From positions 6,281-70,280 of the forward strand of contig JACRIW010000047.1 in assembly GCA_016215625.1 (NCBI GenBank): a stretch of DNA of 64,000 bases. The letters run 5' to 3'. Numbering within the stretch: position 1 is the first letter of the stretch; each line of letters begins with the position of its first letter. Below, one piece after another: positions 28,747 through 47,623 of this stretch. The notes beneath the pieces are model-generated. The model saw only the letters and a program-made list of their open reading frames with translations. It searched no databases and had not been told where the DNA came from. Source of the DNA: Candidatus Eiseniibacteriota bacterium. GTDB lineage: Bacteria > Eisenbacteria > RBG-16-71-46. The position numbers and the translations under genes are program-made.

Positions 28747-28759
28747 GGGAGCGCGCAGG

Positions 28760-32744: not shown

Positions 32745-32990
32745 GTCGGGAATGTATCGGCCCGGGAGTCCCGCGAAGAAGGCGGATTTTTCGGGAGTTC
32801 CGTGCGTGCGGTTCGAGTGCGCCCCGGCGTTGTCCAGTCACGGCGGGTGACTTCGGGGGAAGTGGCGCGCCGGTTCACGGGCGGGATCCGATGGACAGGC
32901 CGGGTCCCGCCTTTCGCGTCCTGGCGGAAGATGCGTGCGATTTCCCATCTGGACGGCGTTCTGGGGTCGGACCCCTAAGGAGATGACGCC

Positions 32991-34681: not shown

Positions 34682-36052
34682 TCATGCGGCCGCGCTCGCC
34701 GGCTTCGCCTGCGGTTTCGAAAAGTCCTGCTTCGTCGCGAGCCGCGCGGTCAGCACTTTCAACGCCGCCCGCACTCTCGGCTCGAGCGGGCCGTCCGCGA
34801 GGTCTTTCGTCGCTTCCGCCGCGCGCGCCGATTGCTCCGGCGTGAACTGGAGCGACTTCAGCGCGCTCAGCAGATCGGCGTCGCGCTCCTGGATCGCGGC
34901 CCTCTCGGCGGCGAGTCGCGCCTTCTCTTCCGCGGCCCGTGCCTTCTCTTCACGCGCCACCGCACGAGCGGCTTCTCTCGCCTTCGCTTCACTGTGGCGT
35001 GCGCGCTCGCGTTCGGCGCGTTCGCGGGCGCGCGCGACGCGGTCTTCGCCCAGCACGCGCTCGGCTTCGAACAGGTTGTGCGCCCGGCAGAGCAGCCGGA
35101 CGTTCGCGAGTGTGCTCTCGCCGCCGAGCGCGACGGGCGTGCGGTGATCGAACTGCAGCCAGCGACGCTCGCCGCAGCGATGACCGTCCGCGCTCACGAA
35201 CGAGCAGCACCCGCCGTCGCGCTGCCAGACGGCGTGGCGCACGGCTTTCGGAATACGCCGGCCGTTGCCGACGGTCTCTTCGGTCTGTTCGCTCTTCTTC
35301 GCGCCGAGCTTGTCTCTCAAGAGTCGCTCTTCGAGCAGCTCGATTGCCTTGGCGTAGATCGCCGCCGGGTCCTGCGCCCAGTCGATGTTGCTCAGGAGGT
35401 CCTGCACGCGGCGAAGAGAGTCACGCTCCTGCTGCGTGAGCGTGAGACGCACTTCATGTTCGCCCGGCGCGCCGAGCGAGATGACGCCGCGCTTCTTCGG
35501 AGGAAGCGGCGCCGCCGACTCCTGCGCGAACGCGATGAACGCGAGCGCTTCAGGACCGGCTGATTCTTGGCCACTTACATGCCATGTGGCATGTGATGGT
35601 GACGTTTCTTTGACAGGCGGAGTCTCGCACTCGCTCTTCTGAACGACGGGCCGCATTCGCGCCGCGACCAGCTGCGCAATCTCGGCGCACGACTTGTTCG
35701 CCGCCGCCGCGAGCAGCTCCTCCGAGTTCTCGACCTTCAGATGCGGCGCGAGCGCGACGACCGCACCGAGCGTCAGGCGCCCGTCAGACAGGTAATCGAA
35801 GATCGTCGTGAATCGCGCCGCGGTCCGCGCCGCCTGGAGTCGCTTCGACGCACGGTCTGGCGTCATGCGCAGGTGCTGCTCGCAGTACGTCTTCATGCAG
35901 GAGTAGCCGGCGGCGCGGAAGTCGCGGCGCGAGTCGATCAGCGCGAGAAGGGCGAGACCCTCCGCGACGCGATGGTGTTCTTCGCGGTAGATCAGATCGA
36001 GGCGCGCGCGAGCTTCTTCCGGCGAGAGGTGCGTCGGCAGGCGAAAGCGCAT
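34682..36052 (-). CDS. DUF222-type HNH endonuclease with long C-terminal Ala/Arg/Glu coiled-coil tail
   Basis: HNH core AVRHAVWQRDGGCCSF....HRCGERRWLQFDHRTPVALGGESTLANVRLLCRAHN. N-terminal DUF222-like helical region. C-terminal ERERARHSEAKAREAARAVAREEKARAAEEKARLAAERAAIQERD. Confidence 0.75.
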   Translation of the reverse strand: MRFRLPTHLSPEEARARLDLIYREEHHRVAEGLALLALIDSRRDFRAAGYSCMKTYCEQHLRMTPDRASKRLQAARTAARFTTIFDYLSDGRLTLGAVVALAPHLKVENSEELLAAAANKSCAEIAQLVAARMRPVVQKSECETPPVKETSPSHATWHVSGQESAGPEALAFIAFAQESAAPLPPKKRGVISLGAPGEHEVRLTLTQQERDSLRRVQDLLSNIDWAQDPAAIYAKAIELLEERLLRDKLGAKKSEQTEETVGNGRRIPKAVRHAVWQRDGGCCSFVSADGHRCGERRWLQFDHRTPVALGGESTLANVRLLCRAHNLFEAERVLGEDRVARARERAERERARHSEAKAREAARAVAREEKARAAEEKARLAAERAAIQERDADLLSALKSLQFTPEQSARAAEATKDLADGPLEPRVRAALKVLTARLATKQDFSKPQAKPASAAA

Positions 36053-36508
36053 GGCACAGGTACCGCGGGGGCGCGTTCACTTCACGCGGGGGCGACGCGC
36101 TCTTTGTATCACGCGCATTTTCGCGCGCCGCATTCGAGCGCACGCGCAAGAACGCCAATCGCGACAGCAACTCGCGAACGCAACCGCGCCGGGCGCGAAC
36201 ACGCGCGAACCTCGCGCGATTGCGTTCGAGCGGCGCGAACGCCACGGCTGCGCGACAAGGTCGCCCTCCGAACCCGTCAAACGAATTCGCGAACAACCGC
36301 CGCGCGAGCCACGCCCACGAGTCGTCGACTGCGGTCGAGCCGCGCCCGGAGCGGCAAGGGGCCTGCAGCGGGACTCAGCGACCCGCGGAGCCAGGACGGC
36401 GGGAGCGGGTCGATGCGTCAGCGAGGCCCGGCTGGAGCCGGGCTGAGCGGCCGCGAAAGGCCCCTTGCTGCGCAGGGTGAGGCGACGCCCAACGCAGGAC
36501 GTTCGCCG
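36053..36508. repeat. 456-nt GC-rich noncoding tract with reiterated GCGCGAAC / TCGCGAAC motifs and several hairpins
   Basis: No ORF with coding character. At least 5 copies of (g/t)cgcgaac within ~200 nt. Inverted repeat gaacgcaa...ttgcgttc. Hairpins cccggctggagccggg and ggccgcgaaaggcc. Confidence 0.45.
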
Positions 36509-36853
36509 CTAAGAACGCTCCCGCCTCTTCCTCGTATACACCTGCACGTAGTCCAAATGCACGACCAGCTTGCAATCCGTGCAGTCGTCCTCGAGTTGCT
36601 CAGGCGTCACGGCATCCGCGACGACCTCGAAACCGCCCGATTCGTACAGCGCGACCAGATCCGGAACACGAGCACGCTCGATCACGAAGCGGCGCTTCCA
36701 GCCGTCCGCGAGACGCGCCGGGTCCGGCGTGATGCGCTCGAGCGCCGCGTCCCGCATCGCCTCGGCGCGAACCAGCGAGGTGAGCGAACGCTTGGCGCGC
36801 TCGCCCACCTCTTCCGCGGTGCGGCCCGCGTCGGGATCCTTCTCGTCGCTCAC
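36509..36853 (-). CDS. Small hypothetical protein (114 aa, single CxxC) at 3' end of the reductase operon
   Basis: ORF with 4-nt gap to upstream ATPase gene. Motif DDCTDCKL. Confidence 0.5.
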   Translation of the reverse strand: MSDEKDPDAGRTAEEVGERAKRSLTSLVRAEAMRDAALERITPDPARLADGWKRRFVIERARVPDLVALYESGGFEVVADAVTPEQLEDDCTDCKLVVHLDYVQVYTRKRRERS

Positions 36854-36857
36854 GAGG

Positions 36858-37679
36858 TCAGGCCGTGGCTTTCGCGGCGCCGCTCGAACCCAGCACGTCC
36901 AGCCGCCGCTGCGCCAACAGGCCCGCGCCGTAGGCCGAGACGTACTGCACGAGATCGCCCTCGGGCACGTTCACGTCTGCCTTGAGCGCCTCGCGCACCA
37001 CGCGGCCCATCGCCTCGAACCGCAGGATGCCGCCGATGAGCGTGAACTCGGGCTCGAGCTTCACGCGCTTCATCAGCTGCACCGACCGCCCGACCAGCGA
37101 CACGATCGCGCCGTGCATGATGTCCGCGGGCGCGACGCCCTGCGACAGGTGGTTGATCACTTCGGACTCGGCGAACACCGCGCACACGCCCGAGATGCTC
37201 GTGCTGCCCTTCGACGTGTCCACGAGCGGCCCGATCTCCTCGGTCGAGTAGCCCATGTAGCGCGCGGTCTTCTCGAGGAACGCGCCGGTGCCGGCCGCGC
37301 ACTTGTCGTTGAGACGGAACGAGTGAACCCTCGCGTCCGGCGTGAGGCGCGTCGCCTTCATCGTCTGGCCGCCCACGTCGAGAATCGTGCGCGTGTTCGG
37401 GAAGAGCTTCGTCACGCCACGCGCCGCGGCGGTCAGGTCCGTCACCTGGATGTCGGCGAACGACGCCTGGTGCCGTCCGCTGCCGGTCGCGACGACGTAC
37501 GCCACGTCGTTCGCGGTGCGCCCGGTCTCGCCGAGCGCGGCCGCGAGCGTGGCGGTCGCCACTTCGGTGAGGCGGAAGCCGGTCGGCGCGATCGCGCGGC
37601 CGATCATCGCGCCGTACTCGTCCACGATGACGGCTTTCGTGTAGGTCGAACCGACGTCGAGACCTGCGGTGATCCTCAC
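36858..37679 (-). CDS. BadF/BadG/BcrA/BcrD-family ATPase (activase/ATP-binding subunit), second copy
   Basis: GTG start overlaps upstream stop (GTGA). [17 protein letters not shown]-terminus, NDKCAAGTG [4Fe-4S]-bridging Cys pair region. Confidence 0.8.
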
Positions 37680-38494
37680 GCCGTCACCCCCCTCGTCGCA
37701 GCCGGCGTGCGGCTCGCGAAGATGTGGTCGAGCGCGAACAGCGCCGCGCCGAGCGCGCCCATGTAGTGCGAGTCGTCGCTCACATTGACTTTCATGCCCA
37801 TCGCCTTCTCGAGCGACTCGATCATCGCGATGTTCTTCGCGACACCGCCCGTGAACGTGACCTCGGGCTCGATGCCCACGCGCCACGCGAGACCGGTTGA
37901 GCGTCCCGCGATCGACTGGTGCACGCCGAGCAGGATGTCCTCGATCTTCTTGCCCTTGCCGAGCCAGCTGAGCACCTCGGACTCGGCGAACACCGTGCAC
38001 GTCGTGCTGATCTTCACCGGCCGCTCGCCGCGCAGCGCGGTGTGCCCGAGCTGGTCGAGCGGGATCTCGAGCGCGGACGACGCCGCGCCGAGGAAGCGCC
38101 CGGTGCCGGCGGCGCACTTGTCGTTCATGCAGAAGTCCACGATCTCGCCGCGCGCGGACACGCGGATGGCCTTCGTGTCCTGCCCGCCCATGTCCACCAC
38201 GGTGCGCGTGTTCGGGAACATGTGCACGGCGCCGCGGCCGTGGCAGCTGATCTCGGTCACCTGCGTGTTGCCGAACGTCACCTTGTAGCGGCCGTAGCCG
38301 GTGCCGACGACGTACTCGACCTCTTCCTCGCGCACGTCACCGTCGGCGAGCGCGATCGCGAACGCCTCCTCGGCGGCGCGCGTCACGTTCGCGCCGGTCA
38401 TCGTGAGCGCGCGCCCGACGATCCTGCCCTGCTCGTCGATCACGACCGCCTTCGTCTGGGTGGACCCGACGTCCACTCCCGCTGCGTATGCCAT
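37676..38494 (-). CDS. BadF/BadG/BcrA/BcrD-family ATPase (activase/ATP-binding subunit), first copy
   Basis: [21 protein letters not shown]...[13 protein letters not shown] is typical HgdC/BcrD. Distinct sequence from the downstream copy. Confidence 0.8.
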
Positions 38495-38512
38495 GTGTGG
38501 GATCTCCCTCGC

Positions 38513-39814
38513 TCAGGCGATGCCGGCGGCGGCCTGGTTGCGGCGCGACTCGAGGCCCTCGAAGAACGCGTCGATGCGGTTCTTGAGCTGGGCCTCGGAC
38601 ACGACGCGGCGGTCCATCATGTCGGACTCGATGAACAGGCTGTTCACGTCGCGCGCGGCCATGAGCGCGCGGCGGCTGTCGGCCTGTCCGGTGGACGTGG
38701 TGCGGCAGCTCTTGACGGGGTGGTACACGACGCCGTCCACGGCGAAGTCGTCCACCATCTTCACGAGCGCGTTCGTCTGGAAGAACATGCTGTCCATCGC
38801 GTCGCTCACGCCGGTGAGCAGGCCCTCGGCGAGCGACTCGAGCGGATCGGCGAGCTCGTATTCGAAACCGAGATTCGTGCCGCCCGAGGCGAACCACAGG
38901 TACGTCGAGTTCACGAACGTGCCGCCGTGCTCGCTGAACAGTTCGGTGAAGCGGCGGAAGATCGGGTAGCACGGCACACCCACGAACAGGAGCCGGTGCT
39001 TCTCGTCCACCAGCGTGCCGATGCCGTTCGCGCGCTTGTACTCCATCTCCTCGACGAGCTCGTCGAAGTACTTCGCGCCCGCCTCGTGCCCGCGGAAGCC
39101 GTTGCACACGCCCAGGTAGATCGTGCCGTCCGAGAGCGCGTTGAACAGCGACGGCCGGCTCTGGTTGAGCTCGAGCACGCGCTTCCAGCCGCGGCTCATC
39201 GTGTTCGCGTGCTTCATGGTTTCGCGCAGGCGGTCGACGTCGAACTTCTTCCCCGTCACCTGCTCGAGCACGGCGATCAGTTCGCGCAGCTGCGCGGCGA
39301 CGTACTTGCGGTCGCGCTCGAAGCCCGGCGTGTGGCGGTTCACCGGGTGCCCGTCCTGGCGCGACGCGGGAATGTCGAGCACGTACGCCGGCATCTTGTA
39401 CATGCGCTCCCAGATCTCGGCCCACTTGATGTACGTGTTGCACGCGTTCGTGAGCACGGCGATCGACGGCTTCGGGATGCGGCCCATGGGCAGCATGCCG
39501 CCGCGGCGCTGCGTCGCGACGTCGGCCTTCACGTAGCCGCAGATGTCGGGCGAGTAGCCGACGTCCTCCGCCTCGTTGAGGTAGTCGTGCGCCTGGTGGC
39601 GCACGGCGGTCTGCAGGGAGTTGATCTCGGGAAACACGAGCGGCAGGTCGAACGTGCTCAGGAGTTCACCGAGGCTGCCCATGACGAACACGTAGGCGCC
39701 GCCGCGGTTCTCCTCCGCGGCCTGGCCCAGTCCGTCGAACCACTGGCGGAACAGTCGCGCGCCTTCGCGATTGCCCCGTCCGACGATGCTTTCCGCTCCG
39801 GCGGTCTCGCTCAC
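38513..39814 (-). CDS. 2-hydroxyacyl-CoA dehydratase / benzoyl-CoA reductase family subunit (HgdB/BcrC/BadD-like)
   Basis: 433 aa. Family-typical conserved Cys positions (GVPCYPIF, CRTTSTG) and length. Confidence 0.7.
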   Translation of the reverse strand: MSETAGAESIVGRGNREGARLFRQWFDGLGQAAEENRGGAYVFVMGSLGELLSTFDLPLVFPEINSLQTAVRHQAHDYLNEAEDVGYSPDICGYVKADVATQRRGGMLPMGRIPKPSIAVLTNACNTYIKWAEIWERMYKMPAYVLDIPASRQDGHPVNRHTPGFERDRKYVAAQLRELIAVLEQVTGKKFDVDRLRETMKHANTMSRGWKRVLELNQSRPSLFNALSDGTIYLGVCNGFRGHEAGAKYFDELVEEMEYKRANGIGTLVDEKHRLLFVGVPCYPIFRRFTELFSEHGGTFVNSTYLWFASGGTNLGFEYELADPLESLAEGLLTGVSDAMDSMFFQTNALVKMVDDFAVDGVVYHPVKSCRTTSTGQADSRRALMAARDVNSLFIESDMMDRRVVSEAQLKNRIDAFFEGLESRRNQAAAGIA

Positions 39815-39824
39815 GGCGTCCTCC

Positions 39825-41006
39825 TCAGACGAACAGCAGGTTTTCGACGAAGGTCTCGAGCTGGATCTCGAGCGTGTCGTAGCTGGTCATGTTCTCTTCG
39901 AACTCGGTGACGAAGTACGGCAGCTTCGCTTCGTCGAGCGCGTGCACGTACGCCACCTGCTCCTCGAGTCCGGGCTCGCACATCTTGGCGGCGGCGAGGA
40001 TCACCGCCGACGCGTTCGACTCGCGCACGCGCTTCAGCAGCATGTCCTCCTTCTGCTTGCGCGGGTCGTGCTGCACGGGGCTGTAGCTCGAGCGCTCGAG
40101 GTAGCCCCACGCGAGCGCGTCGAGCGGATCGCCGGTCACCGGCAGGTCCTCGAGGATCCAGCGCAGTCCGATGAGCAGGTCGTCGTCGACGACGTAGCAG
40201 GAGCGGCCGATCGCGCGGATCAGCTCGAACGGCGGCTGCTCGCAGAAGCCGCCCTCGAACACGACGCGGACGCGGTCGTGCTTCTTGCGTTCTCGCGTCT
40301 CGAGCAGCGGCAGCACGGCTTCGAGCAGCTCGTTGTGCTCCTCGCGCGGCATGAGCCCGCCGACGGCGACGAGCGCGTAGGCCTCGTGCATCGCGACCTG
40401 CCACGGCGTCTCGCGCTTGATCGCGTAGAGCTTGCGCAGCAGCTCGCGGTTCCGGTTGAAGACGGCGATCGAGTTCCGCAGCGCCTCGTCGGTGACCGTG
40501 ACGCCGGCGATCTCGCCGCACAGGTCGCGCACGCGTGCGTACTCGCCGGCGAGGTACGTGCGCGCCGCGGGCGACGTCGCGTTCTGCGGCAGGTAGAGGA
40601 TCTGGCAGGGGTACGGGAAGTTGCGCCCGAACACCGCCGCGAGGTTGCGGGCCGCGTCGCAGATCGGATGCGTCACGAACAGCTCGAGCTCGACGCGCTT
40701 GCTCACGACCAGCTCGAGCGACGTCTTGAGGATCGAGCAGAGGTACGAGCCGAAGTGCGAGTCCGCGTGCTTGGGCTCGATCGGCGCGCCGCGCATCTTG
40801 AACGGCAGCATGCCGGCCGCGTGCGCGATCTCCTCGGGGAAGTAGACCTGGAAGTGCCCGACCACCTTGCCGCCGGCTTCGCGCCAGCGCTTCACGGTCG
40901 GGAACTCGGTGTCGTCGAGGAGTTCGACGACGGCGTGCAGCATGCCGTCGAGGTCCTTGCCCCGCCATTCGGGGAACACGCGGATCGCGCTCAACGGTGC
41001 CTCCAC
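39825..41006 (-). CDS. 2-hydroxyacyl-CoA dehydratase / benzoyl-CoA reductase family subunit (HgdA/BcrB/BadE-like); start uncertain
   Basis: Coding portion begins around VEAPLSAIRVFPEWRGKDLDGMLHAVVELL. Conserved HPICDAARN, MCEPG segments. The first ~110 codons of the track ORF are Arg-rich non-coding. Confidence 0.6.
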   Translation of the reverse strand: MEAPLSAIRVFPEWRGKDLDGMLHAVVELLDDTEFPTVKRWREAGGKVVGHFQVYFPEEIAHAAGMLPFKMRGAPIEPKHADSHFGSYLCSILKTSLELVVSKRVELELFVTHPICDAARNLAAVFGRNFPYPCQILYLPQNATSPAARTYLAGEYARVRDLCGEIAGVTVTDEALRNSIAVFNRNRELLRKLYAIKRETPWQVAMHEAYALVAVGGLMPREEHNELLEAVLPLLETRERKKHDRVRVVFEGGFCEQPPFELIRAIGRSCYVVDDDLLIGLRWILEDLPVTGDPLDALAWGYLERSSYSPVQHDPRKQKEDMLLKRVRESNASAVILAAAKMCEPGLEEQVAYVHALDEAKLPYFVTEFEENMTSYDTLEIQLETFVENLLFV

Positions 41007-41749
41007 TGTGCCGGACGCTTCTCGAGAAAGGCGTTGAGCCCCTCGAGCGCGTCCTCGGTCTTCATGAGCTTCGTGACGTAGTCGTCGCTCGCGGCGCGCA
41101 GCGCCTCGCCGAGCGGCTTCACGGCGGAGTCGAGCAGCGTCGCCTTGGTCGCGCGCAGCGCGGCCGCGCTGTGGCGCGCGATGCGGCGCGCGATCGCGAG
41201 CGCCTCGTCCTCGACCGTCTCGTCGGGCACGACGTGCTGCACGACGCCGGCGGCGCGCGCGCGCGTGGACGACACGGCGTCGCCCGCGAACAGCAGTTCG
41301 GCCGCGAAGCCGTGCTGCGAGAGCCGCGGCAGGATCACGCACGCGACCGGCGCCGTGACGCCGAGCACGATCTCGGGCTGGCCGAACGTGGCGCCCTCGC
41401 CCGCGACGATCACGTCGGCGGCCATCGCCAGCTCGAACCCGCCGCCGAGGCAGCGTCCGCGCACGGCGGCGATCACCGGCAGCGGTAAGCGCGCGAGGCG
41501 CTCGATCGTGTCGCAGAACTCCGGGATCAGCTCCTCGTACTGCGGCGGCAGGTGCTCGCCGACGTCGGCGCCGGCCGAGAAGTGCCTGCCCGCGGCCGTG
41601 AGGCGCACGGCGCGCAGCTCGGGCGTCGCCTCGAGCGTCGCGAGCACCGTGCGCAGCTCCGCGAGCACGGCGCGCGTGAGGATGTTGAGCGGCGGGGCGT
41701 CGAGCGTGAGCGTCGCGACGCCCTGTTCGACGTGGGTCTTCCAGCTCAT
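40991..41749 (-). CDS. Enoyl-CoA hydratase (crotonase family; dienoyl-CoA hydratase candidate)
   Basis: MSWKTHVEQGVATLTLDAPPLNIL...AAGRHFSAGADVGE...GGGFELAMAADV. AAGGGAG RBS. ATGA overlap with upstream gene. Confidence 0.8.
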   Translation of the reverse strand: MSWKTHVEQGVATLTLDAPPLNILTRAVLAELRTVLATLEATPELRAVRLTAAGRHFSAGADVGEHLPPQYEELIPEFCDTIERLARLPLPVIAAVRGRCLGGGFELAMAADVIVAGEGATFGQPEIVLGVTAPVACVILPRLSQHGFAAELLFAGDAVSSTRARAAGVVQHVVPDETVEDEALAIARRIARHSAAALRATKATLLDSAVKPLGEALRAASDDYVTKLMKTEDALEGLNAFLEKRPAQWRHR

Positions 41750-42180
41750 GCCGTGGCTCCCTTCGGGGATTCGAGCGTGTAGTCCACGCGGATGTCCTCG
41801 ACGTCTTCGTGCAGCCGCGGCGTCACCTGCAGCGGCATGCCGATCGCGAGGCTCGACTCCGGCACCGACGCGCCGATCCAGGCGAGCGCGCGGCCTCCTT
41901 CTTCCAGATCCACCAGTCCCAGCGTGTAGGGCGCGACGTCCTCGAACCCGCGCGGCGCCGCCGTGATGCGCGTCCAGGTGTGCAGTGTGCCGCGGCCGCT
42001 CACCGGGACGAACGTGAACGCGCCGTGCAGGCACGCTTCGCAGTCCGCACGCGGCGGGAACGACACGTGCCCGCACGCCTCGCAGCGCGACGCCATGAGC
42101 CGGCCCTCGCGCAGGTGCTGCGCGAACTCGGCGACCTTCGTGTGCGGCGCGTGATTGACCCTGCCGAACCACTTGAACAT
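41746..42180 (-). CDS. DUF35 Zn-ribbon/OB-fold protein (thiolase partner; BbsA/ChsH-like)
   Basis: CEACGHVSFPPRADCEAC zinc ribbon followed by OB-fold. Stop/start overlaps on both sides. Confidence 0.75.
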   Translation of the reverse strand: MFKWFGRVNHAPHTKVAEFAQHLREGRLMASRCEACGHVSFPPRADCEACLHGAFTFVPVSGRGTLHTWTRITAAPRGFEDVAPYTLGLVDLEEGGRALAWIGASVPESSLAIGMPLQVTPRLHEDVEDIRVDYTLESPKGATA

Positions 42181-43340
42181 CACTCGTCCCTCGTGAGGAC
42201 CTGCACGAAGCAGTACTGGCCGATGCCGCCGACGTTGTGCGTGAGACCGACGTCGGCGTCCGGCACCTGCCGTTCGCCCGCGTCGCCGCGCAGCTGCTTC
42301 ACGATCTCCGTGGTCATGGACACGCCGGTCGCGCCGATGGGGTGCCCCTTCGCCTTGAGCCCGCCGTCCACGTTCACCGGCGTGCTGCCGCCGATGTAAG
42401 AGCGGTTCTCCGCGATGAACGCGCCGCCTTCGCCCTTCGCGCAGAACCCGAGGTCCTCGTACGCGAGCACTTCGGCGATCGTGAAGCAGTCGTGCACGTC
42501 GGCGACGCGCACGCGCTTCGCGTCCACGCCCGCCATCGCGTACGCCTGCGCGGCCGCGGCCTGCGCGCTGCCCAGCCCCGTGAGCGACGGACGGCGCAGC
42601 ACCGACATCGTGTCGCTCGCACAGCCCATGCCCGACAGCCACACGGGCGGCTTTCGCAACCCGCGCGCGCGCGGCTCGGCGGCGAGGATCACGCACGCGG
42701 CGCCGTCGGCGTTCGCGCAGCAGTCGAACACGTGGAACGGCGTCGCGACGTCCTCCGACGCGTTCGCCTTCTCCGCGGTGATCTCCTTGCGGAACATCGC
42801 GAGCGGGTTCCTCGCGCCGTAGAAATGGTTCTTGATCGCGACCGCCGTGAGCTGCTCGCGCGTCGTGCCGTACTCGTGCATGTGGCGCCGAGCGAACATC
42901 GCGTAGTAGCCCGGGAACGTGCTGCCGAAGCTCGACTCCCACTGCACCTCGCCCACGCGCCCCATGAGCGCGAGGATCTCGGCCGTCTCGAGCTCGGTCA
43001 TCTTCTGGCAGCCGATCACGGCCACCACGTCGTGCACGCCGGCCTTGATGCTCATCCACGCGGTGCGGATGGCGGCGCTGCCCGACGCGCACGCGGCCTC
43101 GGTGAGCCACGTCGGCTTCGGCGTGAGCCCGAGGTACTCCTGCACGACACCCGGCAGCGAACGCTGCTTGTGGTACTCGGGCACCGAGCCCACGACGACC
43201 GCGTCCATGTGGCCGCGATCGAGCCCCGAGTCGGCGAGCGCGGCGCGGAACGCCTCCGCCGCGAGCTCCTGCACGGTCGCGTCGCTTCGGCGCCCGAAAG
43301 GCGTGTGCCCGATGCCGACGATGCCGACGCGGCCGCTCAC
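42180..43340 (-). CDS. Thiolase-like protein (SCP-x / BbsB-type, non-canonical thiolase)
   Basis: GTG start overlapping SDR stop (GTGA). RVGIVGIGHTPFGRR...TEAACASGSAAI...GGIGQYC. Paired with DUF35 protein. Confidence 0.75.
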   Translation of the reverse strand: MSGRVGIVGIGHTPFGRRSDATVQELAAEAFRAALADSGLDRGHMDAVVVGSVPEYHKQRSLPGVVQEYLGLTPKPTWLTEAACASGSAAIRTAWMSIKAGVHDVVAVIGCQKMTELETAEILALMGRVGEVQWESSFGSTFPGYYAMFARRHMHEYGTTREQLTAVAIKNHFYGARNPLAMFRKEITAEKANASEDVATPFHVFDCCANADGAACVILAAEPRARGLRKPPVWLSGMGCASDTMSVLRRPSLTGLGSAQAAAAQAYAMAGVDAKRVRVADVHDCFTIAEVLAYEDLGFCAKGEGGAFIAENRSYIGGSTPVNVDGGLKAKGHPIGATGVSMTTEIVKQLRGDAGERQVPDADVGLTHNVGGIGQYCFVQVLTRDE

Positions 43341-44086
43341 AGGTACTGCCCTCCGTCCACCTGCACGACCTGGCCGGTCACGTGGCGCGCGGCGTCCGAG
43401 CACAGGAACGCGACGACCGCGGCGCAGTCGCGCGGCTCGGCGAGGCGCCCGAGCGTCGTCTCGTCCACGGCCTTCTCGATCACTTCGGGCGGCAGCACCG
43501 CGGCCATCTCGGTGCGCACCATGCCCGGCGCGACCACGTTCACGGTGACGCCGAACTTGCCCAGTTCGCGCGCGAGCGTCTTGGACAGCGCGACCATGCC
43601 GCCCTTGGACGCCGCGTAGTTCGCCTGCCCGAACTTGCCGCGCAGGCCGTTGATGCTCGCGATGTTCACGATGCGGCCCGCGCGCGCGTCCTTCATGAGC
43701 GCGCCCGCGGCGCGGCAGTAGGCGAAGCAGCCTTTCAGGTTCACGTCGAGCACGCGGTCCCACTGCGCCTCGGTCATCTTCCACGAGAGCGCGTCGTCCG
43801 TGACGCCGGCACAGCAGACGAGCACGTCGAGGCGTCCCGCGGCCGCGGCCACCTCGCGCACCGTCCGCTCCGCCAGCGAAAAGTCGCGGACGTCCGCCGT
43901 GTGGAACGTCGCGCGCACGCCCGCGGCGGCGATCGCGGCGAGCGAGGCTTCCGCCTTCTCGTCGCGGCGCACGTCCACGATCGCCACGTCGCATCCTTCG
44001 CGCGCCAGCTCGAGCGCGATCGCGGCGCCGATGCCCGCCGCGCCGCCCGTCACCAGCGCCGTACGACCCTTGAGTCCGAGGTCCAC
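43337..44086 (-). CDS. Short-chain dehydrogenase/reductase (FabG-like 3-oxoacyl/3-hydroxyacyl-CoA dehydrogenase)
   Basis: TGGAAGIGAAIA Rossmann motif, catalytic YAASKGG. Confidence 0.8.
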   Translation of the reverse strand: MDLGLKGRTALVTGGAAGIGAAIALELAREGCDVAIVDVRRDEKAEASLAAIAAAGVRATFHTADVRDFSLAERTVREVAAAAGRLDVLVCCAGVTDDALSWKMTEAQWDRVLDVNLKGCFAYCRAAGALMKDARAGRIVNIASINGLRGKFGQANYAASKGGMVALSKTLARELGKFGVTVNVVAPGMVRTEMAAVLPPEVIEKAVDETTLGRLAEPRDCAAVVAFLCSDAARHVTGQVVQVDGGQYL

Positions 44087-44111
44087 GCGTGCTCCGTTCG
44101 CGGACGCGCCG

Positions 44112-45212
44112 TCAGCGCGCCGCGGTCTCCGCCGTGCCGGCCGGCGCGATCGCGCGCATGAGGTCCTCGTTCCACGGGTGACCGGCGGCGAGCAGCTGGC
44201 GGAGCTTGATGAAGTCCACCTCGCGCTGCTCCTTGGGCCCTTCGTTGAACGCGCGGAAACCCGCGCGACCCTCGGTCATCATGTTGAGCGCGAGCCACTC
44301 GCGGTTCGTGATGCTGTTGACGTCCCAGTGCCCCTGTTTGTGCTTGCGCACGCTGTTCACGGTCTTGCTCACGCAGTCGGGCATGAGCATGAGCAGCTTC
44401 GTGCACATGCGCTCGACCGCCTCGTCGAGCGCCGACAGGTCGCTCGTGCACTGCGCGAAGAGCGCCTTGCCTTCGGCGGCCGCGGCGCCGGTCTTGAAGT
44501 CGCCGTACACGATCTTGCCCCACTCGTCGGCGACCTTGTCCGTCACGACGAGCGGATTGGGCACCCACTGCCCGTCCTTCTTGAGCACGGGCACGACTTC
44601 GTTGATCAGCCCGAGCCACGACGCCTTGTGCGCGCTCCACGCCTCGCACAGCACCGCGCTCTCCATCGCGTGACCGAAGCCCACGTAGAGCGGCAGGAAA
44701 TCCGTGCTGCCGCCGTCGGGCGCCGAGCCGTGCTTCGGGCCCGCCTGGCCGAACCGCGCGGTGTCGATCGCGACCGAGAAGTCGCACGCCATGCCGATCT
44801 CCTGCCCGCCGCCGATGCGCATGCCGTTCACGCGGTTGATGACGGGTTTGTCGCAGCGCAGGATCGAATCGATCATGTCGTTGAAGATGCGCATGTACTG
44901 CTTGTACTCCTGCGGATTGCCCGCGTAGTACTCGGCGTACTCCTTCGTGTTGCCGCCGGTGCAGAACGCGCGGTCGCCCACGGCCGTGAACACGACGCAC
45001 ACGACGCTGCGGTCCATGCTCGCCTGCCGGAACGCGAGCACGATCTCGCGCGCGGCTTCGGTCGTGTAGCTGTTCAGCTGGCCGGGGTTGTCGATGATGA
45101 TCCAGGCGTGGAACAGGCCTTCGACCTTCGCGCCCTTCGGGTCGCGCGCGGGGCGCAGTTCGTAACCGATGTGCTCGAACTTGTAGCCGTCGACGAGAAC
45201 GTGGCTCTTCAT
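44112..45212 (-). CDS. Crotonase-superfamily enzyme with ~110-aa C-terminal extension, reminiscent of 6-oxocyclohex-1-ene-1-carbonyl-CoA hydrolase (Oah/BamA)
   Basis: Start MKSHVLVDGYKFEH with GGAG RBS. Crotonase core VVFTAVGDRAFCTGGN...GGGQEIGMACDF. 366 aa is unusually long for a plain hydratase. Confidence 0.55.
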   Translation of the reverse strand: MKSHVLVDGYKFEHIGYELRPARDPKGAKVEGLFHAWIIIDNPGQLNSYTTEAAREIVLAFRQASMDRSVVCVVFTAVGDRAFCTGGNTKEYAEYYAGNPQEYKQYMRIFNDMIDSILRCDKPVINRVNGMRIGGGQEIGMACDFSVAIDTARFGQAGPKHGSAPDGGSTDFLPLYVGFGHAMESAVLCEAWSAHKASWLGLINEVVPVLKKDGQWVPNPLVVTDKVADEWGKIVYGDFKTGAAAAEGKALFAQCTSDLSALDEAVERMCTKLLMLMPDCVSKTVNSVRKHKQGHWDVNSITNREWLALNMMTEGRAGFRAFNEGPKEQREVDFIKLRQLLAAGHPWNEDLMRAIAPAGTAETAAR

Positions 45213-45238
45213 GGAAGCGACTCCGTCGTGCATGGGGG

Positions 45239-46291
45239 TCAGCGGGACGCCGGCTCGAGGATCGCGCGGCGGTGGATTTCGTGGTCGGCCACCCGGCGGA
45301 CGACTTCCGGTCCGTCGTTCAGCGGGTGGCGTTCGATGAACGGCTTCAGCGTGACGCGCCCGCTCGTGACCATCGCGAGCGCGTCCGGGTACAGCTCCGG
45401 CCGGCACCCCCACGTGCCCTGCACGGTGGCGTCGAACGCCATCAGGTTCGACAGCCGCACTTCGATCTTGCCCAACGTGAAGCCCACGACCATGAGCGTG
45501 CCCGCGTGGCCGAGCAGGCCGTACGCGGTCTCCTGACCCGGCGTGGAACCCGAGCACTCGAACACCTTGGCGCCGTGCGAAGGACAGCCCCACTCCTTCG
45601 CCTTCGCGCCGATTTCCTTCTTGAGCGTCTTGAAGTCGGTCGCGCGGCTGTTGAAAGTGGCGTGTGCGCCGTGCTGCGCGATGAGGGCGAGCTTCGCGTC
45701 GTCCACGTCGATCGCCACCACCTTCGCGCCCATCGCGCTCGCGATCTGCACGGCGTAGCCGCCCACGCCGCCGACGCCGATCACGATCGCGAGCTCACCC
45801 GCGGCGAGCCCGCTGCGCACGACCGCCTGATAAGGCGTCGTCACGGCGTCGGCGACCACGGAGAGTTCGGAGAGCGCGTACCCGCCGCGATCGCGCACGT
45901 GGCACAGCCCGCGCGCGGGCACCACGATGAAGTCCGCGAAGCCGCCGTCCATGTCGTTTCCCGGCATGAGCTGCGCGCGGCACGCGTTGCCGCGGCCTTC
46001 CCTGCACAGGTCGCACGCGCCGCACGAGATCACGGCGGGCACGATCACTTCGCGACCGAGCCACTCCGCCGCACCCTCGCCCGCGGCGTCCACGGTGCCG
46101 CTCACTTCGTGCCCGAGGGTCAACGGCAGCGGCCGGCGCGTCGGCACGCCGTCGCGCCAGAAGCCGATGTCGGTGTGGCAGACGCCGCAGCCCGCGACGC
46201 GCACGCGCACTTCGCCGGGACCGGGGACGGGATCGGGCAGGTCTTCGAGCGTGAGCGGCGAACCCACGGCGTTCAGTCGGACGGCTTTCAT
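45239..46291 (-). CDS. Zn-dependent alcohol dehydrogenase family protein (6-hydroxycyclohexenecarbonyl-CoA dehydrogenase-like candidate)
   Basis: MKAVRLNAVGSPLTLEDLPDP...GCGVCHTDIGF...GHEVSGTV...CGACDLC...GVGGVGGYAVQ. ATGA overlap with TetR gene stop. Confidence 0.8.
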   Translation of the reverse strand: MKAVRLNAVGSPLTLEDLPDPVPGPGEVRVRVAGCGVCHTDIGFWRDGVPTRRPLPLTLGHEVSGTVDAAGEGAAEWLGREVIVPAVISCGACDLCREGRGNACRAQLMPGNDMDGGFADFIVVPARGLCHVRDRGGYALSELSVVADAVTTPYQAVVRSGLAAGELAIVIGVGGVGGYAVQIASAMGAKVVAIDVDDAKLALIAQHGAHATFNSRATDFKTLKKEIGAKAKEWGCPSHGAKVFECSGSTPGQETAYGLLGHAGTLMVVGFTLGKIEVRLSNLMAFDATVQGTWGCRPELYPDALAMVTSGRVTLKPFIERHPLNDGPEVVRRVADHEIHRRAILEPASR

Positions 46292-46974
46292 GAAGTGGCC
46301 TTGCTCCGGGTGCGAGGCCGCGCGGCGCGCGGCTTCGGGCTGCGCACGAGGCGCGGACGCGGCAGGGGCCCCAACCCGCCCACCAGGTGATCCGAAAACT
46401 GCCGGCCGAGCTCGGCCGTCGAGAGCGCGCCACCCGGCCGCCACCAGCGGGCGATCCAGTTGATGGCGCCGAGAATCGCGAACACCGCGACCTTCGCGTC
46501 GGTGTCGCGGAACACGCCCGCGCGCACGCCGCGCTCGATGATGCGGCGCAGCTCGCGCTCGTAGCGGTCGCGGCCGGCGACGACCTCGCGCTGGCGCTCG
46601 CCCGAGAGCGACGGGACCTCGAACGCGAGCGGCGAGCCGTCGAGCGTCTCGGTCATGACGCGCACGTGCGCCTCGATGACGTGGCGCAACTGGTCCGCGG
46701 GCGACTTCAGCCGGCGCGCCTCGGCGAGGTTGCGCTCGAGTTCGCCGAGCGCCTCGCGATGGCATTCGAAGAGGATCGCGTCCTTGTCCGGGAAGTAGTG
46801 GTAGAGCGCCGTCTTCCGCACGCCGAGCTGCTCGGCGATGTGGTCGAGCGTGGTCGCGTGGTAGCCGCGCTCACGGAACGCGCGCAGCGCCGCGTGCTGG
46901 ATCTCGGACTTGCGGCGTTCGCGTTTCTCGTGGACGTGCGGCGAGGACTTCTTCGCCGCGGCGGCGCGGACCAT
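46288..46974 (-). CDS. TetR/AcrR-family transcriptional regulator, first gene of the operon
   Basis: N-terminal HTH IQHAALRAFRERGYHATTLDHIAEQLGVRKTALYHYFPDKDAI. Confidence 0.8.
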   Translation of the reverse strand: MVRAAAAKKSSPHVHEKRERRKSEIQHAALRAFRERGYHATTLDHIAEQLGVRKTALYHYFPDKDAILFECHREALGELERNLAEARRLKSPADQLRHVIEAHVRVMTETLDGSPLAFEVPSLSGERQREVVAGRDRYERELRRIIERGVRAGVFRDTDAKVAVFAILGAINWIARWWRPGGALSTAELGRQFSDHLVGGLGPLPRPRLVRSPKPRAARPRTRSKATS

Positions 46975-47116
46975 GACCGGACTCCCTCGGAACGGGGAAC
47001 GGATGGATTACCGAACGGACGGAAGAACTTTGAACAGTCGTTCAGTTTTCCACAATGGTCCGAAAGTCCCGGTCGGGGCGCTTCGGGCGGCGCCGGGGAG
47101 GCGCCGGCGGCGGGAG

Positions 47117-47623
47117 CTACAACTCCCGCCAGTAGTGCGCGCGCGTGAGGTGGCCGTCCTCGAGGGCGAACGACTTCGGCTCCGTGCCCCAGCGGACGAA
47201 GCCGCAGGACTCGTAGAGCTTCAGGGCCGGGTCGTTGCCCTCGATGGCCGAGAGCTGGATCACCGTCAGGCCGGGCCGCGCCCGGGCGGCGTCGAGCGCG
47301 GCCTCGACGAGCACGCGTCCCGTTCCCGTGCCGCGCGCGGCCGGGCTCACGAACATCCCGAACAGCGTGCAGCGGTGGCGCGTGCGCACGCGCTGCTCGA
47401 ACTGCAGCCCGGCGGCGCCCACGAGCCGTTCGCCCTCGAACGCGCCGACGACCAGCTGCGCGCTGCCGTCGCCCTCGGCCACGCGTCCTTCCCACCAGGA
47501 CATCGGGTAGCGCTCGGCTTCGGCCGGGCTCGTGCCGAACGTCACGGGCACGGTCGCGTACGCCTCGAGCATGAGCGCGCGATAGGCGGCCGCGTCGGCG
47601 GGCGCGAGGCGGCGGATGATCAC
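47117..47623 (-). CDS. GNAT-family N-acetyltransferase
   Basis: VIIRRLAPADAAAYRALM...QRVRTRHRCTLFGMFVSPAARGTGTGRVLVEAAL is acetyl-CoA-binding motif A. GTG start overlaps protease stop (GTGA). Confidence 0.7.
   Translation of the reverse strand: MIIRRLAPADAAAYRALMLEAYATVPVTFGTSPAEAERYPMSWWEGRVAEGDGSAQLVVGAFEGERLVGAAGLQFEQRVRTRHRCTLFGMFVSPAARGTGTGRVLVEAALDAARARPGLTVIQLSAIEGNDPALKLYESCGFVRWGTEPKSFALEDGHLTRAHYWREL

What the first reader, a model, noticed from the sequence alone, without database searches (positions are those of the whole stretch)
36509..46974. TetR-linked 11-gene operon: BCR/HAD-family ATP-dependent radical enzyme plus a ring-degradation-like beta-oxidation module
Eleven co-directional, tightly coupled genes run from 46974 down to 36509 with several ATGA/GTGA overlaps. 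In order: TetR, Zn-ADH, a long crotonase reminiscent of the ring-cleaving hydrolase Oah/BamA, SDR, SCP-x-type thiolase, its DUF35 partner (BbsAB-like), an enoyl-CoA hydratase, two HgdA/HgdB(BcrB/BcrC)-like subunits, TWO different BadF/BadG/BcrA/BcrD ATPases, and a small CxxC protein. Two distinct ATPases beside a dehydratase/reductase AB core is the class I benzoyl-CoA-reductase (BcrCBAD/BadDEFG) layout, not the single-activator HgdC layout. Hydratase, dehydrogenase and an Oah-sized crotonase would supply the downstream dienoyl-CoA steps. Finding this in a high-GC, apparently non-fermentative genome suggests an undescribed ATP-dependent dearomatising or dehydrating pathway for an aromatic or alicyclic CoA ester. 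No ferredoxin gene sits in the operon.
Basis: partly seen in the sequence, partly recalled or inferred. Interest (0 to 1): 0.85.

Follow-up and report, generated by a model that had tools for sequence, protein, structure and literature searches.

The report
MBR-type benzoyl-CoA reductase pathway operon
This is a real 12-gene operon for oxygen-free breakdown of benzoate-like rings, built around a known ATP-driven ring reductase type whose structure is solved, so it is a new member of a known system in an uncultured phylum (Candidatus Eisenbacteria).

Summary
There are 12, not 11, co-directional and tightly coupled minus-strand genes at 36509-46974.

Its four subunits match one-to-one the solved 3-methylbenzoyl-CoA reductase MbdN/O/Q/P (PDB 9g87/9gai): 514, 507, 412 and 278 bits. 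BzdNO and HadBC score 93-117 bits.

The Zn-ADH and the 366-aa crotonase pass NCBIfam's equivalog cut-offs for Had and Oah. The second crotonase is best read as Dch. The SDR and the thiolase/DUF35 pair would take 3-hydroxypimelyl-CoA on to glutaryl-CoA.

The window comes from a Candidatus Eisenbacteria MAG. The same cluster, in the same order, recurs in MAGs labelled Gemmatimonadota, Acidobacteriota, Chloroflexota and others, at 71-97% identity for the O subunit.

Two modest new points:
- The small CxxC protein is a conserved, uncharacterised fifth gene of MBR-type reductase modules, with no Pfam, PDB or fold match.
- A conserved TGAAC-N4-GTTCA operator precedes the TetR gene.

No ferredoxin, ferredoxin-reducing system or CoA ligase is encoded in the window. 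Verdict: new member of a known kind, modest interest.

The parts
47031..47044 (.). Putative TetR operator, a perfect palindrome TGAAC-N4-GTTCA, 57 bp upstream of the TetR start codon.
   Evidence: It is the only perfect match in the 64-kb window. GAAC-N4-GTTC, mostly TTGAAC-N4-GTTCAA, lies at a similar position upstream of the TetR orthologue in 19 of the 38 sequences examined, the window among them.
46288..46974 (-). g1: TetR-family regulator (228 aa) and first gene of the operon. Probably an acyl-CoA-responsive autorepressor.
   Evidence: Pfam TetR_N plus TetR_C_24. The best solved relative is 3vpr (121 bits); MbdR (4uds) scores only 41 bits. Orthologue present in 34 of 45 related loci with at least 7 kb of sequence upstream of the N-subunit gene.
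45239..46291 (-). g2: 6-hydroxycyclohex-1-ene-1-carbonyl-CoA dehydrogenase (Had), Zn-ADH family, 350 aa.
   Evidence: NCBIfam equivalog TIGR03201, 467.7 bits against a cut-off of 338.65. Pfam ADH_N plus ADH_zinc_N. ATGA overlap with g1.
44112..45212 (-). g3: 6-oxocyclohex-1-ene-1-carbonyl-CoA hydrolase (Oah/BamA type), the ring-cleaving crotonase, 366 aa. An alternative start at 45233 would give 373 aa.
   Evidence: NCBIfam equivalog TIGR03200, 559.1 bits against a cut-off of 464.45. No solved Oah exists; the nearest solved structures are MenB at about 103 bits.
43337..44086 (-). g4: SDR (249 aa), inferred to be the 3-hydroxypimelyl-CoA dehydrogenase.
   Evidence: Pfam adh_short_C2, 208 bits. 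It is FabG/acetoacetyl-CoA-reductase-like; one generic FabG subfamily model is passed, but no model specific to this step matches. The role is inferred from its position and from its presence in 33 of 45 loci.
42180..43340 (-). g5: SCP-x/archaeal-type thiolase (386 aa), inferred to be the 3-oxopimelyl-CoA thiolase.
   Evidence: Thiolase_C_1 plus Thiolase_N. NF004720, 475 bits against a cut-off of 420; BbsB scores only 186 against 750. Present in only 15 of 45 related loci.
41746..42183 (-). g6: DUF35 / ChsH2-type zinc-ribbon plus OB-fold partner of the thiolase (145 aa).
   Evidence: Pfam zf-ChsH2 plus OB_ChsH2_C. Four Cys at positions 34, 37, 48 and 51. Start overlaps the g5 stop.
40991..41749 (-). 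g7: crotonase (252 aa), inferred to be the cyclohexa-1,5-diene-1-carbonyl-CoA hydratase (Dch).
   Evidence: The best NCBIfam hit is TIGR03189 (Dch), but at 176.7 bits it is below the cut-off of 292.5 and only just ahead of generic hydratases. The assignment rests on context. Present in 32 of 45 loci.
39825..40994 (-). g8: reductase gamma subunit, MbdN orthologue (389 aa, TTG start), the electron-transfer Fe-S subunit.
   Evidence: 514.5 bits to 9g87_B MbdN, against 117 to HadC and 95 to BzdN. 58% identity to MbdN. Cys86/112/339 align with the HadC and MbdN cysteines. Two of BzdN's cysteines align to non-Cys residues here.
38513..39814 (-). g9: reductase beta subunit, MbdO orthologue (433 aa), the substrate-binding catalytic subunit.
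   Evidence: 507 bits to 9g87_A MbdO, against 116 to HadB and 93 to BzdO. 54% identity. Cys92/125/370 align with the BzdO cluster ligands Cys95/128/380, and Tyr94 with BzdO Tyr97 (ligand roles from PMC11971306).
37676..38494 (-). g10: reductase alpha subunit, MbdQ orthologue (272 aa), ATPase.
   Evidence: 411.7 bits to 9gai_D MbdQ, against 161 to MbdP. Pfam BcrAD_BadFG, 217 bits. Has Cys127 and Cys166.
36858..37679 (-). g11: reductase delta subunit, MbdP orthologue (273 aa), the second and distinct ATPase.
   Evidence: 278.5 bits to 9gai_C MbdP, against 177.5 to MbdQ. 41% identical to g10, with the same Cys127 and Cys166. GTGA overlap with g10.
36509..36853 (-). g12: small conserved protein (up to 114 aa, about 85-aa conserved core) with the motif DPxRxAxGWxRRF...LYxxxGxEV...CxxC...YTR. 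An uncharacterised fifth gene of MBR-type reductase modules.

Best explanation
This is a self-contained, TetR-controlled operon for the central anaerobic benzoyl-CoA pathway (the Dch-Had-Oah route). It sits in a Candidatus Eisenbacteria genome and is built around an MBR-type class I benzoyl-CoA reductase.

Proposed sequence of events:
1. The TetR protein (g1) sits on the TGAAC-N4-GTTCA operator. It is probably released by an aromatic acyl-CoA. This step is inferred.
2. The Q/P ATPase heterodimer (g10/g11) holds a bridging [4Fe-4S] cluster on Cys127/Cys166 of each subunit. It takes electrons from a reduced ferredoxin that is encoded elsewhere.
3. ATP hydrolysis pushes those electrons to a very low potential. 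They pass through the N subunit (g8) to the [4Fe-4S] active site of the O subunit (g9, Cys92/125/370).
4. There benzoyl-CoA, or a methyl- or halo-substituted analogue, is reduced to the cyclohexa-1,5-diene-1-carbonyl-CoA.
5. g7 (Dch) hydrates it, g2 (Had) oxidises it, and g3 (Oah) hydrolytically opens the ring to 3-hydroxypimelyl-CoA.
6. g4 (SDR) and g5/g6 (thiolase with its DUF35 partner) convert that to glutaryl-CoA plus acetyl-CoA.
7. g12 is a conserved accessory protein of unknown role.

Shown by sequence: the orthology of the subunits, the conserved cluster ligands, the Had and Oah family membership, the conserved synteny and the conserved operator.

Inferred: the substrate, the electron donor, the roles of g4-g7, the inducer and the role of g12.
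For: - One-to-one best matches of g8, g9, g10 and g11 to the solved MbdN, MbdO, MbdQ and MbdP: 514, 507, 412 and 278 bits. That is 4-5 times the scores to HadBC or BzdNO.
- Identities to MBR-cluster proteins are 52-70%.
- The reference MbdO scores the same sub-threshold 222 bits against NCBIfam BcrB as g9 does (215 bits). The sub-cut-off scores are therefore a property of the MBR type and not a sign of divergence.
- The active-site Cys ligands and Tyr94 are conserved.
- Each ATPase has two Cys, and the two ATPases are 41% identical.
- Had and Oah pass the curated equivalog cut-offs.
- The whole gene order recurs in the best-matching genome loci from several phyla.
- A related cluster, L086, links N-O-Q-P-small directly to Had- and Oah-like genes behind a regulator with the HTH_3 plus SKI domain pair.
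- The operator is conserved in 19 of the 38 sequences examined.
Against: - No ferredoxin, ferredoxin-reducing enzyme, aromatic acid-CoA ligase or glutaryl-CoA dehydrogenase lies in the 64-kb window. The operon cannot work alone.
- g7 is below the Dch equivalog cut-off (177 against 292 bits).
- Gene order N-O differs from the canonical mbdO-N order.
- BzdO His131, a residue next to the catalytic water, is Tyr128 here and Phe in MbdO. Details of proton delivery may therefore differ from the BZD-type model.
- There is no biochemical or expression data.
Confidence: 0.85

Rival explanations
1. Same enzyme class, but specialised. The reductase serves substituted benzoyl-CoAs (methyl-, chloro- or similar) rather than benzoyl-CoA itself. 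The SCP-x-type thiolase/DUF35 pair would then handle the resulting branched 3-oxo-pimelyl-CoA derivatives, and plain benzoyl-CoA would be handled by another reductase elsewhere in the genome.
For: - The closest characterised enzyme is named a 3-methylbenzoyl-CoA reductase.
- In four Gemmatimonadota genomes (L023, L026, L041, L052) a second reductase-like gene set lies immediately upstream of the MBR-like set in the same cluster. In L026 it was scored and is a bona fide BZD-type reductase: BzdN 490 against a cut-off of 454, BzdO 681 against 449, BzdQ 426 against 380. This suggests the two reductases have complementary roles.
- From my own knowledge, not tested here: Aromatoleum sp. CIB carries bzd and mbd clusters side by side, and SCP-x/BbsAB-type thiolases typically take branched substrates.
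Against: - In the window the MBR-like set is the only reductase in the operon.
- It is coupled to Had and Oah proteins that pass cut-offs for the families NCBI names for the unsubstituted benzoyl-CoA-pathway intermediates.
- Thiolase and DUF35 are absent from about two thirds of related clusters.
- From my own knowledge, not tested here: the MBR of Thauera chlorobenzoica also reduces benzoyl-CoA.
- The L086 relative sits behind a regulator with the HTH_3 plus SKI domain pair. I read that pair, from my own knowledge, as the BzdR/BoxR type that senses benzoyl-CoA.
Confidence: 0.3
2. It is a 2-hydroxyacyl-CoA dehydratase with activators, as NCBI annotates the protein, feeding a beta-oxidation-like module.
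For: - NCBI names the identical protein '2-hydroxyacyl-CoA dehydratase'.
- The only Pfam family hit is HGD-D.
- All four subunits are below the NCBIfam Bcr and Bzd equivalog cut-offs.
Against: - HadB and HadC score 116-117 bits, against 507-514 bits for MbdO and MbdN.
- There are two distinct ATPases, orthologous to MbdQ and MbdP, rather than a single activator gene as in the single-activator HgdC layout.
- The reference MBR subunits are just as far below the cut-offs.
- Had and Oah, which are specific to ring cleavage, are co-encoded.
Confidence: 0.03
3. It is a BCR-like reductase for a non-benzoyl substrate, for example a partly reduced bicyclic or alicyclic CoA ester such as the tetrahydronaphthoyl-CoA reductases. 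The Had- and Oah-like enzymes would then act on that product.
For: - From my own knowledge, not tested here: class I BCR-like enzymes for other CoA esters exist.
- The window clade is only about 53% identical to the characterised MBR.
Against: - Had and Oah score well above the equivalog cut-offs for the monocyclic C7 intermediates.
- There are no genes for a second ring or for other peripheral chemistry in the operon.
Confidence: 0.05

Closest known systems
MBR-type class I benzoyl-CoA reductase MbdONQP (3-methylbenzoyl-CoA reductase; PDB 9g87, 9gai, 9gal, 9gba; the MBR of Thauera chlorobenzoica 3CB-1) and the mbd cluster of Aromatoleum (Azoarcus) sp. CIB
   Same: - Four subunits in one-to-one correspondence, at 278-514 bits and 52-70% identity.
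- The same Cys ligand positions.
- The same short ATPases of about 270 aa, with no BcrA-type extension.
- A g12-like small ORF follows mbdP in an mbd-type cluster (L083).
- A TetR-family regulator controls the cluster (PMC4424350).
   Different: - Gene order is N-O-Q-P here, in 74 of 74 related loci, against O-N-Q-P in L083 and L087.
- The TetR is not an MbdR orthologue: 41 bits to 4uds, against 121 bits to 3vpr. Its operator is TGAAC-N4-GTTCA, not ATAC-N10-GTAT.
- There is no ferredoxin (MbdM), CoA ligase or transporter nearby.
- The host is an uncultured FCB-group bacterium, not a denitrifying betaproteobacterium.
BCR-type class I reductase BcrCBAD (Thauera aromatica) / BadDEFG (Rhodopseudomonas palustris)
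   Same: - Same enzyme class and same gamma-beta-alpha-delta gene order (C-B-A-D corresponds to N-O-Q-P).
- The Bcr models are the best NCBIfam equivalog-model hits for all four subunits; the two ATPases score higher still against the generic activase domain model TIGR00241.
- According to PMC11971306, both types form permanent heterotetramers.
   Different: - All scores are far below the cut-offs: 258 against 421, 215 against 486, 212 against 578 and 122 against 313.
- g10 covers only the C-terminal half of the BcrA model, positions 228-432, so it lacks the BcrA extension.
BZD-type class I reductase BzdNOPQ (Aromatoleum sp. CIB; PDB 8s02)
   Same: - Same superfamily and same chemistry.
- The three Cys ligands of the catalytic [4Fe-4S] are conserved (PMC11971306).
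   Different: - Only 93-95 bits.
- The N subunit lacks at least two of the six Cys of the BzdN [8Fe-9S] double cubane.
- BzdO His131 is Tyr here.
2-hydroxyacyl-CoA dehydratases (HadBC/HadI, HgdAB/HgdC)
   Same: - The BCR/HAD radical enzyme family.
- The same Pfam domains HGD-D and BcrAD_BadFG.
- From my own knowledge, not tested here: the ATPase Cys127/Cys166 positions match those of HgdC.
   Different: - 116-117 bits only.
- Two different ATPase subunits.
- The operon carries ring-cleavage genes rather than amino-acid fermentation genes.

Membership tests
Class I benzoyl-CoA reductase, MBR type (MbdONQP) | Two paralogous HGD-D subunits plus two non-identical BcrAD_BadFG ATPase subunits, encoded together. 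| tested here: met
   Pfam. g10 and g11 are 41% identical. The four genes are adjacent at 36858-40994.
Class I benzoyl-CoA reductase, MBR type (MbdONQP) | Each subunit is most similar to its MbdN, MbdO, MbdQ or MbdP counterpart, well above the BZD-type and HAD proteins. | tested here: met
   514, 507, 412 and 278 bits, against 93-117 bits for BzdNO and HadBC. The cross-matches (g10 to MbdP, g11 to MbdQ) are lower, at 161 and 177 bits. In a rough NJ tree g9 falls in the broad radiation that is sister to the canonical MbdO clade, within an MBR-like group rooted on HadB. That tree has no BcrB, BadE or BzdO sequence.
Class I benzoyl-CoA reductase, MBR type (MbdONQP) | Three Cys ligands for the catalytic [4Fe-4S] in the substrate-binding subunit, and a conserved Glu near the cluster. 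| tested here: met
   Cys92/125/370 align with BzdO Cys95/128/380 and are invariant in the 8-sequence alignment that includes MbdO. Glu63 of the FPEINSLQTA motif is invariant. Its equivalence to BzdO Glu65 is inferred, not aligned.
Class I benzoyl-CoA reductase, MBR type (MbdONQP) | Two Cys per ATPase subunit for the bridging [4Fe-4S]. | tested here: met
   Cys127 and Cys166 occur in both g10 and g11, aligned to each other.
Class I benzoyl-CoA reductase, MBR type (MbdONQP) | ATP-dependent two-electron reduction of (methyl)benzoyl-CoA to the 1,5-dienoyl-CoA. | not testable with these tools
   Needs an anoxic enzyme assay.
Class I benzoyl-CoA reductase, BCR type (BcrCBAD/BadDEFG) | Passes the NCBIfam equivalog cut-offs TIGR02263, TIGR02260, TIGR02259 and TIGR02261. 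| tested here: not met
   258 against 421, 215 against 486, 212 against 578, 122 against 313.
Class I benzoyl-CoA reductase, BZD type (BzdNOPQ) | Passes TIGR03190, TIGR03191 and TIGR03192; six-Cys double-cubane site in the N subunit. | tested here: not met
   97 against 454, 98 against 449, 185 against 380. Two BzdN Cys positions align to non-Cys residues.
2-hydroxyacyl-CoA dehydratase (HAD) | Closest relatives are HadBC/HgdAB, with a single activator gene (the single-activator HgdC layout). | tested here: not met
   HadB and HadC score 116-117 bits, against 507-514 bits for MbdO and MbdN. There are two distinct ATPases.
Benzoyl-CoA pathway ring-processing enzymes (Dch-Had-Oah) | Had: passes equivalog TIGR03201. 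| tested here: met
   467.7 against 338.65.
Benzoyl-CoA pathway ring-processing enzymes (Dch-Had-Oah) | Oah: passes equivalog TIGR03200; long crotonase of about 360 aa. | tested here: met
   559.1 against 464.45, aligned over model positions 14-358 of 360.
Benzoyl-CoA pathway ring-processing enzymes (Dch-Had-Oah) | Dch: passes equivalog TIGR03189. | tested here: inconclusive
   It is the best hit, but at 176.7 bits it is below the cut-off of 292.5, and EchA19 scores nearly as high at 172.
MbdR-type TetR regulator | Orthology to MbdR (PDB 4uds) and the ATAC-N10-GTAT operator. | tested here: not met
   41 bits to 4uds, against 121 bits to 3vpr. The operator here is TGAAC-N4-GTTCA. The MbdR operator is taken from PMC4424350.

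The most novel reading that the evidence does not exclude
Two linked readings remain open.

1. The N-O-Q-P-g12 clade, found across MAGs labelled Eisenbacteria, Gemmatimonadota, Acidobacteriota and Chloroflexota, could be a functionally distinct fourth lineage of ATP-dependent ring reductases, with its own substrate range or electron-donor solution.

2. The conserved small CxxC protein g12 could be a so-far overlooked, dedicated partner of MBR-type reductases. It might act as a dimeric metal or Fe-S electron-entry adaptor, or as a redox or assembly factor for the oxygen-sensitive ATPase module.
Probability: 0.25. Interest if true: 0.5.

Novelty: new member of a known kind. Interest (0 to 1): 0.3.

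Why it matters
- It puts a complete, well-supported anaerobic aromatic-ring degradation module into Candidatus Eisenbacteria, a phylum with almost no known physiology.
- The same module is common in uncultured Gemmatimonadota and Acidobacteriota from soils, sediments and wastewater. At least 517 stretches in the species-representative genome collection encode a relative of the O subunit.
- NCBI labels these proteins '2-hydroxyacyl-CoA dehydratase', so surveys based on that annotation would miss this ATP-dependent dearomatisation capacity.
- It flags a conserved unknown fifth gene and a conserved operator. Both are cheap to test.
- It does not reveal new chemistry.

Tried and rejected
- **Structure paper.** A literature search for the PDB codes 9GAI, 9G87 and 9GBA, and for 'mbdONQP', did not find the MBR structure paper in the library. 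Active-site residues specific to MBR could therefore not be taken from a paper. Only BzdO positions were mapped, and only where the phmmer alignment covered them.
- **Plasmids.** The plasmid collection holds no close relative; identities were at most 27%.
- **Reference loci.** Four loci fetched as mbd references (L081, L082, L084, L085) carry only a solitary MbdO-like gene and were useless for synteny.
- **RNA and signals.** Rfam found nothing in the window. The sigma-70 promoter scan found nothing, and terminator-like hits were at chance level.
- **Ferredoxin.** A motif scan found none in the window. The IorAB-like genes about 4 kb downstream in some Gemmatimonadota loci are separated from the cluster by unrelated genes. 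I do not count them as part of the system.
- **A technical error, corrected.** My first g12 HMM was contaminated by upstream out-of-frame sequence. I rebuilt it on the core only.

Full report
**1. Observation**

The window is about 70% G+C, so raw ORF lists are crowded with spurious frames. A third-position GC frame plot and inspection of start codons and ribosome-binding sites resolve 12 minus-strand genes. They exactly fill 36509-46974.

Start and stop codons overlap or abut at g1/g2, g4/g5, g5/g6, g6/g7, g7/g8 and g10/g11. The remaining gaps are 4-26 bp. The count is 12, not 11.

The flanks are unrelated:
- Upstream lie a Met-zincin and a GNAT.
- Downstream lie an HNH-domain protein and a secreted protein with a Por_Secre_tail sorting domain.

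**2. What the reductase is**

Against all PDB sequences, each of the four subunits has one clear best match:

| Window gene | Best PDB match | Bits |
|---|---|---|
| g8 | MbdN | 514.5 |
| g9 | MbdO | 507 |
| g10 | MbdQ | 412 |
| g11 | MbdP | 278.5 |

All four belong to the 3-methylbenzoyl-CoA reductase entries 9g87, 9gai, 9gal and 9gba. For g8 and g9, HadBC scores 116-117 bits and BzdNO 93-95 bits. For the two ATPases the next-best matches are the HadI and HgdC activators, at 133-212 bits. Identity is 54% to MbdO and 58% to MbdN. Against a close mbd-type relative (L083) it is 70% for Q and 52% for P.

PMC11971306 recognises three types of class I benzoyl-CoA reductase: BCR, MBR and BZD. It states that the BCR and MBR types form permanent heterotetramers.

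The NCBIfam equivalog models cover only the BCR and BZD types. The window proteins fall below all of them. The reference MbdO and an mbd-type N, Q and P do too, with almost the same scores: MbdO scores 222 bits and g9 scores 215 bits against TIGR02260. The sub-threshold scores are therefore what an MBR-type enzyme should give. They also explain why NCBI names the identical protein '2-hydroxyacyl-CoA dehydratase', while JGI names several close relatives (69-91% identical) 'benzoyl-CoA reductase subunit B'.

Functional residues are in place:
- g9 Cys92, Cys125 and Cys370 align with the three ligands of the catalytic [4Fe-4S]-OH2 cluster of BzdO, which are Cys95, Cys128 and Cys380.
- g9 Tyr94 aligns with the thioester-binding Tyr97 (roles from PMC11971306).
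- BzdO His131 is Tyr128 here and Phe in MbdO.
- g8 keeps the three HadC/MbdN-type cysteines but lacks at least two of BzdN's six double-cubane cysteines.
- g10 and g11 are 41% identical, and each has Cys127 and Cys166.

**3. The rest of the operon**

- g2 passes the curated cut-off for Had (468 against 339 bits).
- g3 passes the cut-off for Oah (559 against 464 bits).
- g7's best hit is Dch, but below cut-off (177 against 292 bits). Its role is contextual.
- g4 (SDR) and g5/g6 (SCP-x-type thiolase plus DUF35 partner) fit the next two steps, 3-hydroxypimelyl-CoA to 3-oxopimelyl-CoA to glutaryl-CoA plus acetyl-CoA. This is inference from position.

Taken together, the operon would carry an aromatic CoA ester through to glutaryl-CoA.

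What is missing from the 64 kb is a ferredoxin, a ferredoxin-reducing enzyme, a CoA ligase and a glutaryl-CoA dehydrogenase.

**4. Source and distribution**

The O subunit is 100% identical to a protein of a Candidatus Eisenbacteria MAG. This fits the Por_Secre_tail proteins in the window.

A scan of one genome per species found at least 517 stretches that encode relatives. The 80 best loci are 71-97% identical and all come from MAGs. They are labelled mainly Gemmatimonadota and Eisenbacteria, and also Acidobacteriota, Chloroflexota, Verrucomicrobiia and Bacteroidota.

Synteny is strong:
- N precedes O in 74 of 74 loci.
- Among the 45 loci with at least 7 kb of sequence upstream of the N-subunit gene, TetR is present in 34, Had in 30, Oah in 30, the SDR in 33 and Dch in 32.
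- Thiolase is present in only 15 of those 45 and DUF35 in 18, so that pair is an optional add-on.

A rough NJ tree rooted on HadB was built from identity distances, with no BcrB in it. It shows the canonical MbdO clade as one branch, with a broad radiation as its sister group. The window's tight clade sits within that radiation. Identities run continuously from 53% to 100%.

**5. Two small new points**

*(a) g12 is a real, conserved gene.*
- It follows the P subunit in 66 of 68 loci that have room for it.
- Its core motif is DPxRxAxGWxRRF...LYxxxGxEV...CxxC...YTR.
- Homologues also follow the second ATPase in a proteobacterial-type O-N-Q-P cluster (L083), a Rhodospirillales MAG (L087) and an N-O-Q-P-small-Had-Oah cluster in a 9.3-Mb genome (L086). 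HMM E-values are 1.4e-14, 1e-19 and 6.6e-24.
- A full HMMER scan finds 723 representatives at 50% clustering. The 150 best listed are all small proteins of 71-155 aa.
- It has no Pfam or NCBIfam match and no PDB sequence match.
- A confident AF2 model (pLDDT 83.6) shows a long N-terminal helix plus a small alpha/beta domain. That model has no meaningful fold match.
- The PDB searches matched only MbdN, O, Q and P chains in the MBR entries, and g12 matched none. It is therefore probably an accessory factor and not a stable subunit. Its function is open.

*(b) A conserved operator.* A perfect palindrome TGAAC-N4-GTTCA lies 57 bp upstream of the TetR start and is unique in the window. The GAAC-N4-GTTC core recurs upstream of the TetR orthologue in 19 of the 38 sequences examined, the window among them. 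The regulator is not an MbdR orthologue (41 bits to 4uds, against 121 bits to 3vpr). Its site differs from MbdR's ATAC-N10-GTAT (PMC4424350).

**6. Substrate**

The substrate cannot be settled here. Pointing to a role on substituted benzoyl-CoAs:
- The nearest characterised enzyme is named for 3-methylbenzoyl-CoA.
- Four Gemmatimonadota genomes carry a second reductase-like set directly upstream of the MBR-like set. In L026, the one scored, it is a bona fide BZD-type reductase with an Fe-S/flavin NAD(P)H oxidoreductase.

Pointing to benzoyl-CoA itself:
- In the window this is the only reductase in the operon.
- Had and Oah fit the unsubstituted-ring families.
- One relative (L086) sits behind a regulator with HTH_3 and SKI domains. 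I read that, from my own knowledge, as BzdR/BoxR-like.

**7. Verdict**

The feature is real and correctly read as a class I benzoyl-CoA reductase operon. It belongs to the described MBR type, and the downstream route is the standard one. It is a new member of a known kind in a poorly known phylum. It adds a conserved unknown fifth gene, a swapped N/O gene order, a different TetR/operator pair and no co-encoded electron donor. Interest is modest.

Noticed in passing
L026:1549-8640 (same layout in L023, L041, L052): In four Gemmatimonadota genomes a second reductase-like gene set sits directly upstream of the MBR-like N-O-Q-P-g12 set, in one cluster. In L026, the only one scored, BzdN, BzdO and BzdQ pass the NCBIfam equivalog cut-offs, and an 855-aa Fe-S/flavin NAD(P)H oxidoreductase follows them. 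So two types of ATP-dependent ring reductase lie in tandem.
   Followed up: partly
L081:10001-11344, L084:10001-11314, L085:7265-8608: Solitary MbdO-like HGD-D genes, 59-78% identical to MbdO, have no N, Q or P partner beside them. Their neighbours include TRAP transporter genes and a MazE-type antitoxin gene, a Mo-hydroxylase, and a TetR plus CoA ligase. These may be decayed clusters, assembly artefacts or a different use of the subunit.
   Followed up: no
L036:17244-19571, L033:16547-18445: Several Gemmatimonadota loci have an open reading frame with a ferredoxin-type Cys motif a few kb downstream of the cluster. The two I checked with Pfam (L036, L033) are IorA-like, and L036 also has the IorB-like partner. 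In those two loci unrelated genes (isocitrate-dehydrogenase-family, and in L036 HMGL-like) lie in between. This 2-oxoacid:ferredoxin oxidoreductase is a possible but unproven source of reduced ferredoxin.
   Followed up: partly
window 36100-36310: The 455-nt gap between g12 and the HNH-domain gene (34682-36052, minus strand) holds many copies of GTTCGCG/CGCGAAC-like words and GC-rich inverted repeats. There is a hairpin at 36415-36454 just after the g12 stop, with no T-tract. No Rfam match.
   Followed up: partly
window 32991-34649 (+), 52339-56493 (-), 47620-50217 (-): There are large secreted or surface proteins: two with weak, sub-threshold Por_Secre_tail (T9SS sorting domain) matches, one of them also carrying Calx-beta domains, and a DUF4953/DUF5117 Met-zincin. 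These fit an FCB-group organism and agree with the Eisenbacteria assignment.
   Followed up: partly
window 61613-62983 (-) and 21374-23908 (-): A multihaem c-type cytochrome (weak, sub-threshold MtrC/MtrF-like and cytochrome c7-like Pfam hits) and a multicopper-oxidase-domain protein. Both hint at respiratory versatility, which is relevant to where reduced ferredoxin and an anaerobic lifestyle might come from.
   Followed up: no
window 27235-29584 (-) and 58216-60240 (-): A biotin carboxylase and a crotonase lie next to each other, with a carboxyltransferase 30 kb away. This is an acyl-CoA carboxylase system, of the methylcrotonyl-, propionyl- or glutaconyl-CoA type. It is not linked to the operon.
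   Followed up: no
window 38513-39814 (protein P0001): Public annotation is inconsistent. NCBI calls this protein and its relatives '2-hydroxyacyl-CoA dehydratase (family protein)', while JGI calls several close relatives 'benzoyl-CoA reductase subunit B'. The NCBIfam equivalogs do not cover the MBR type. Even the crystallised MbdO scores 222 bits against a cut-off of 486.
   Followed up: yes
window 29625-32837 (-): A 1070-aa CHAT-domain protein with TPR repeats, a caspase-like protease scaffold, lies a few kb from the operon. It is unrelated to the finding.
   Followed up: no
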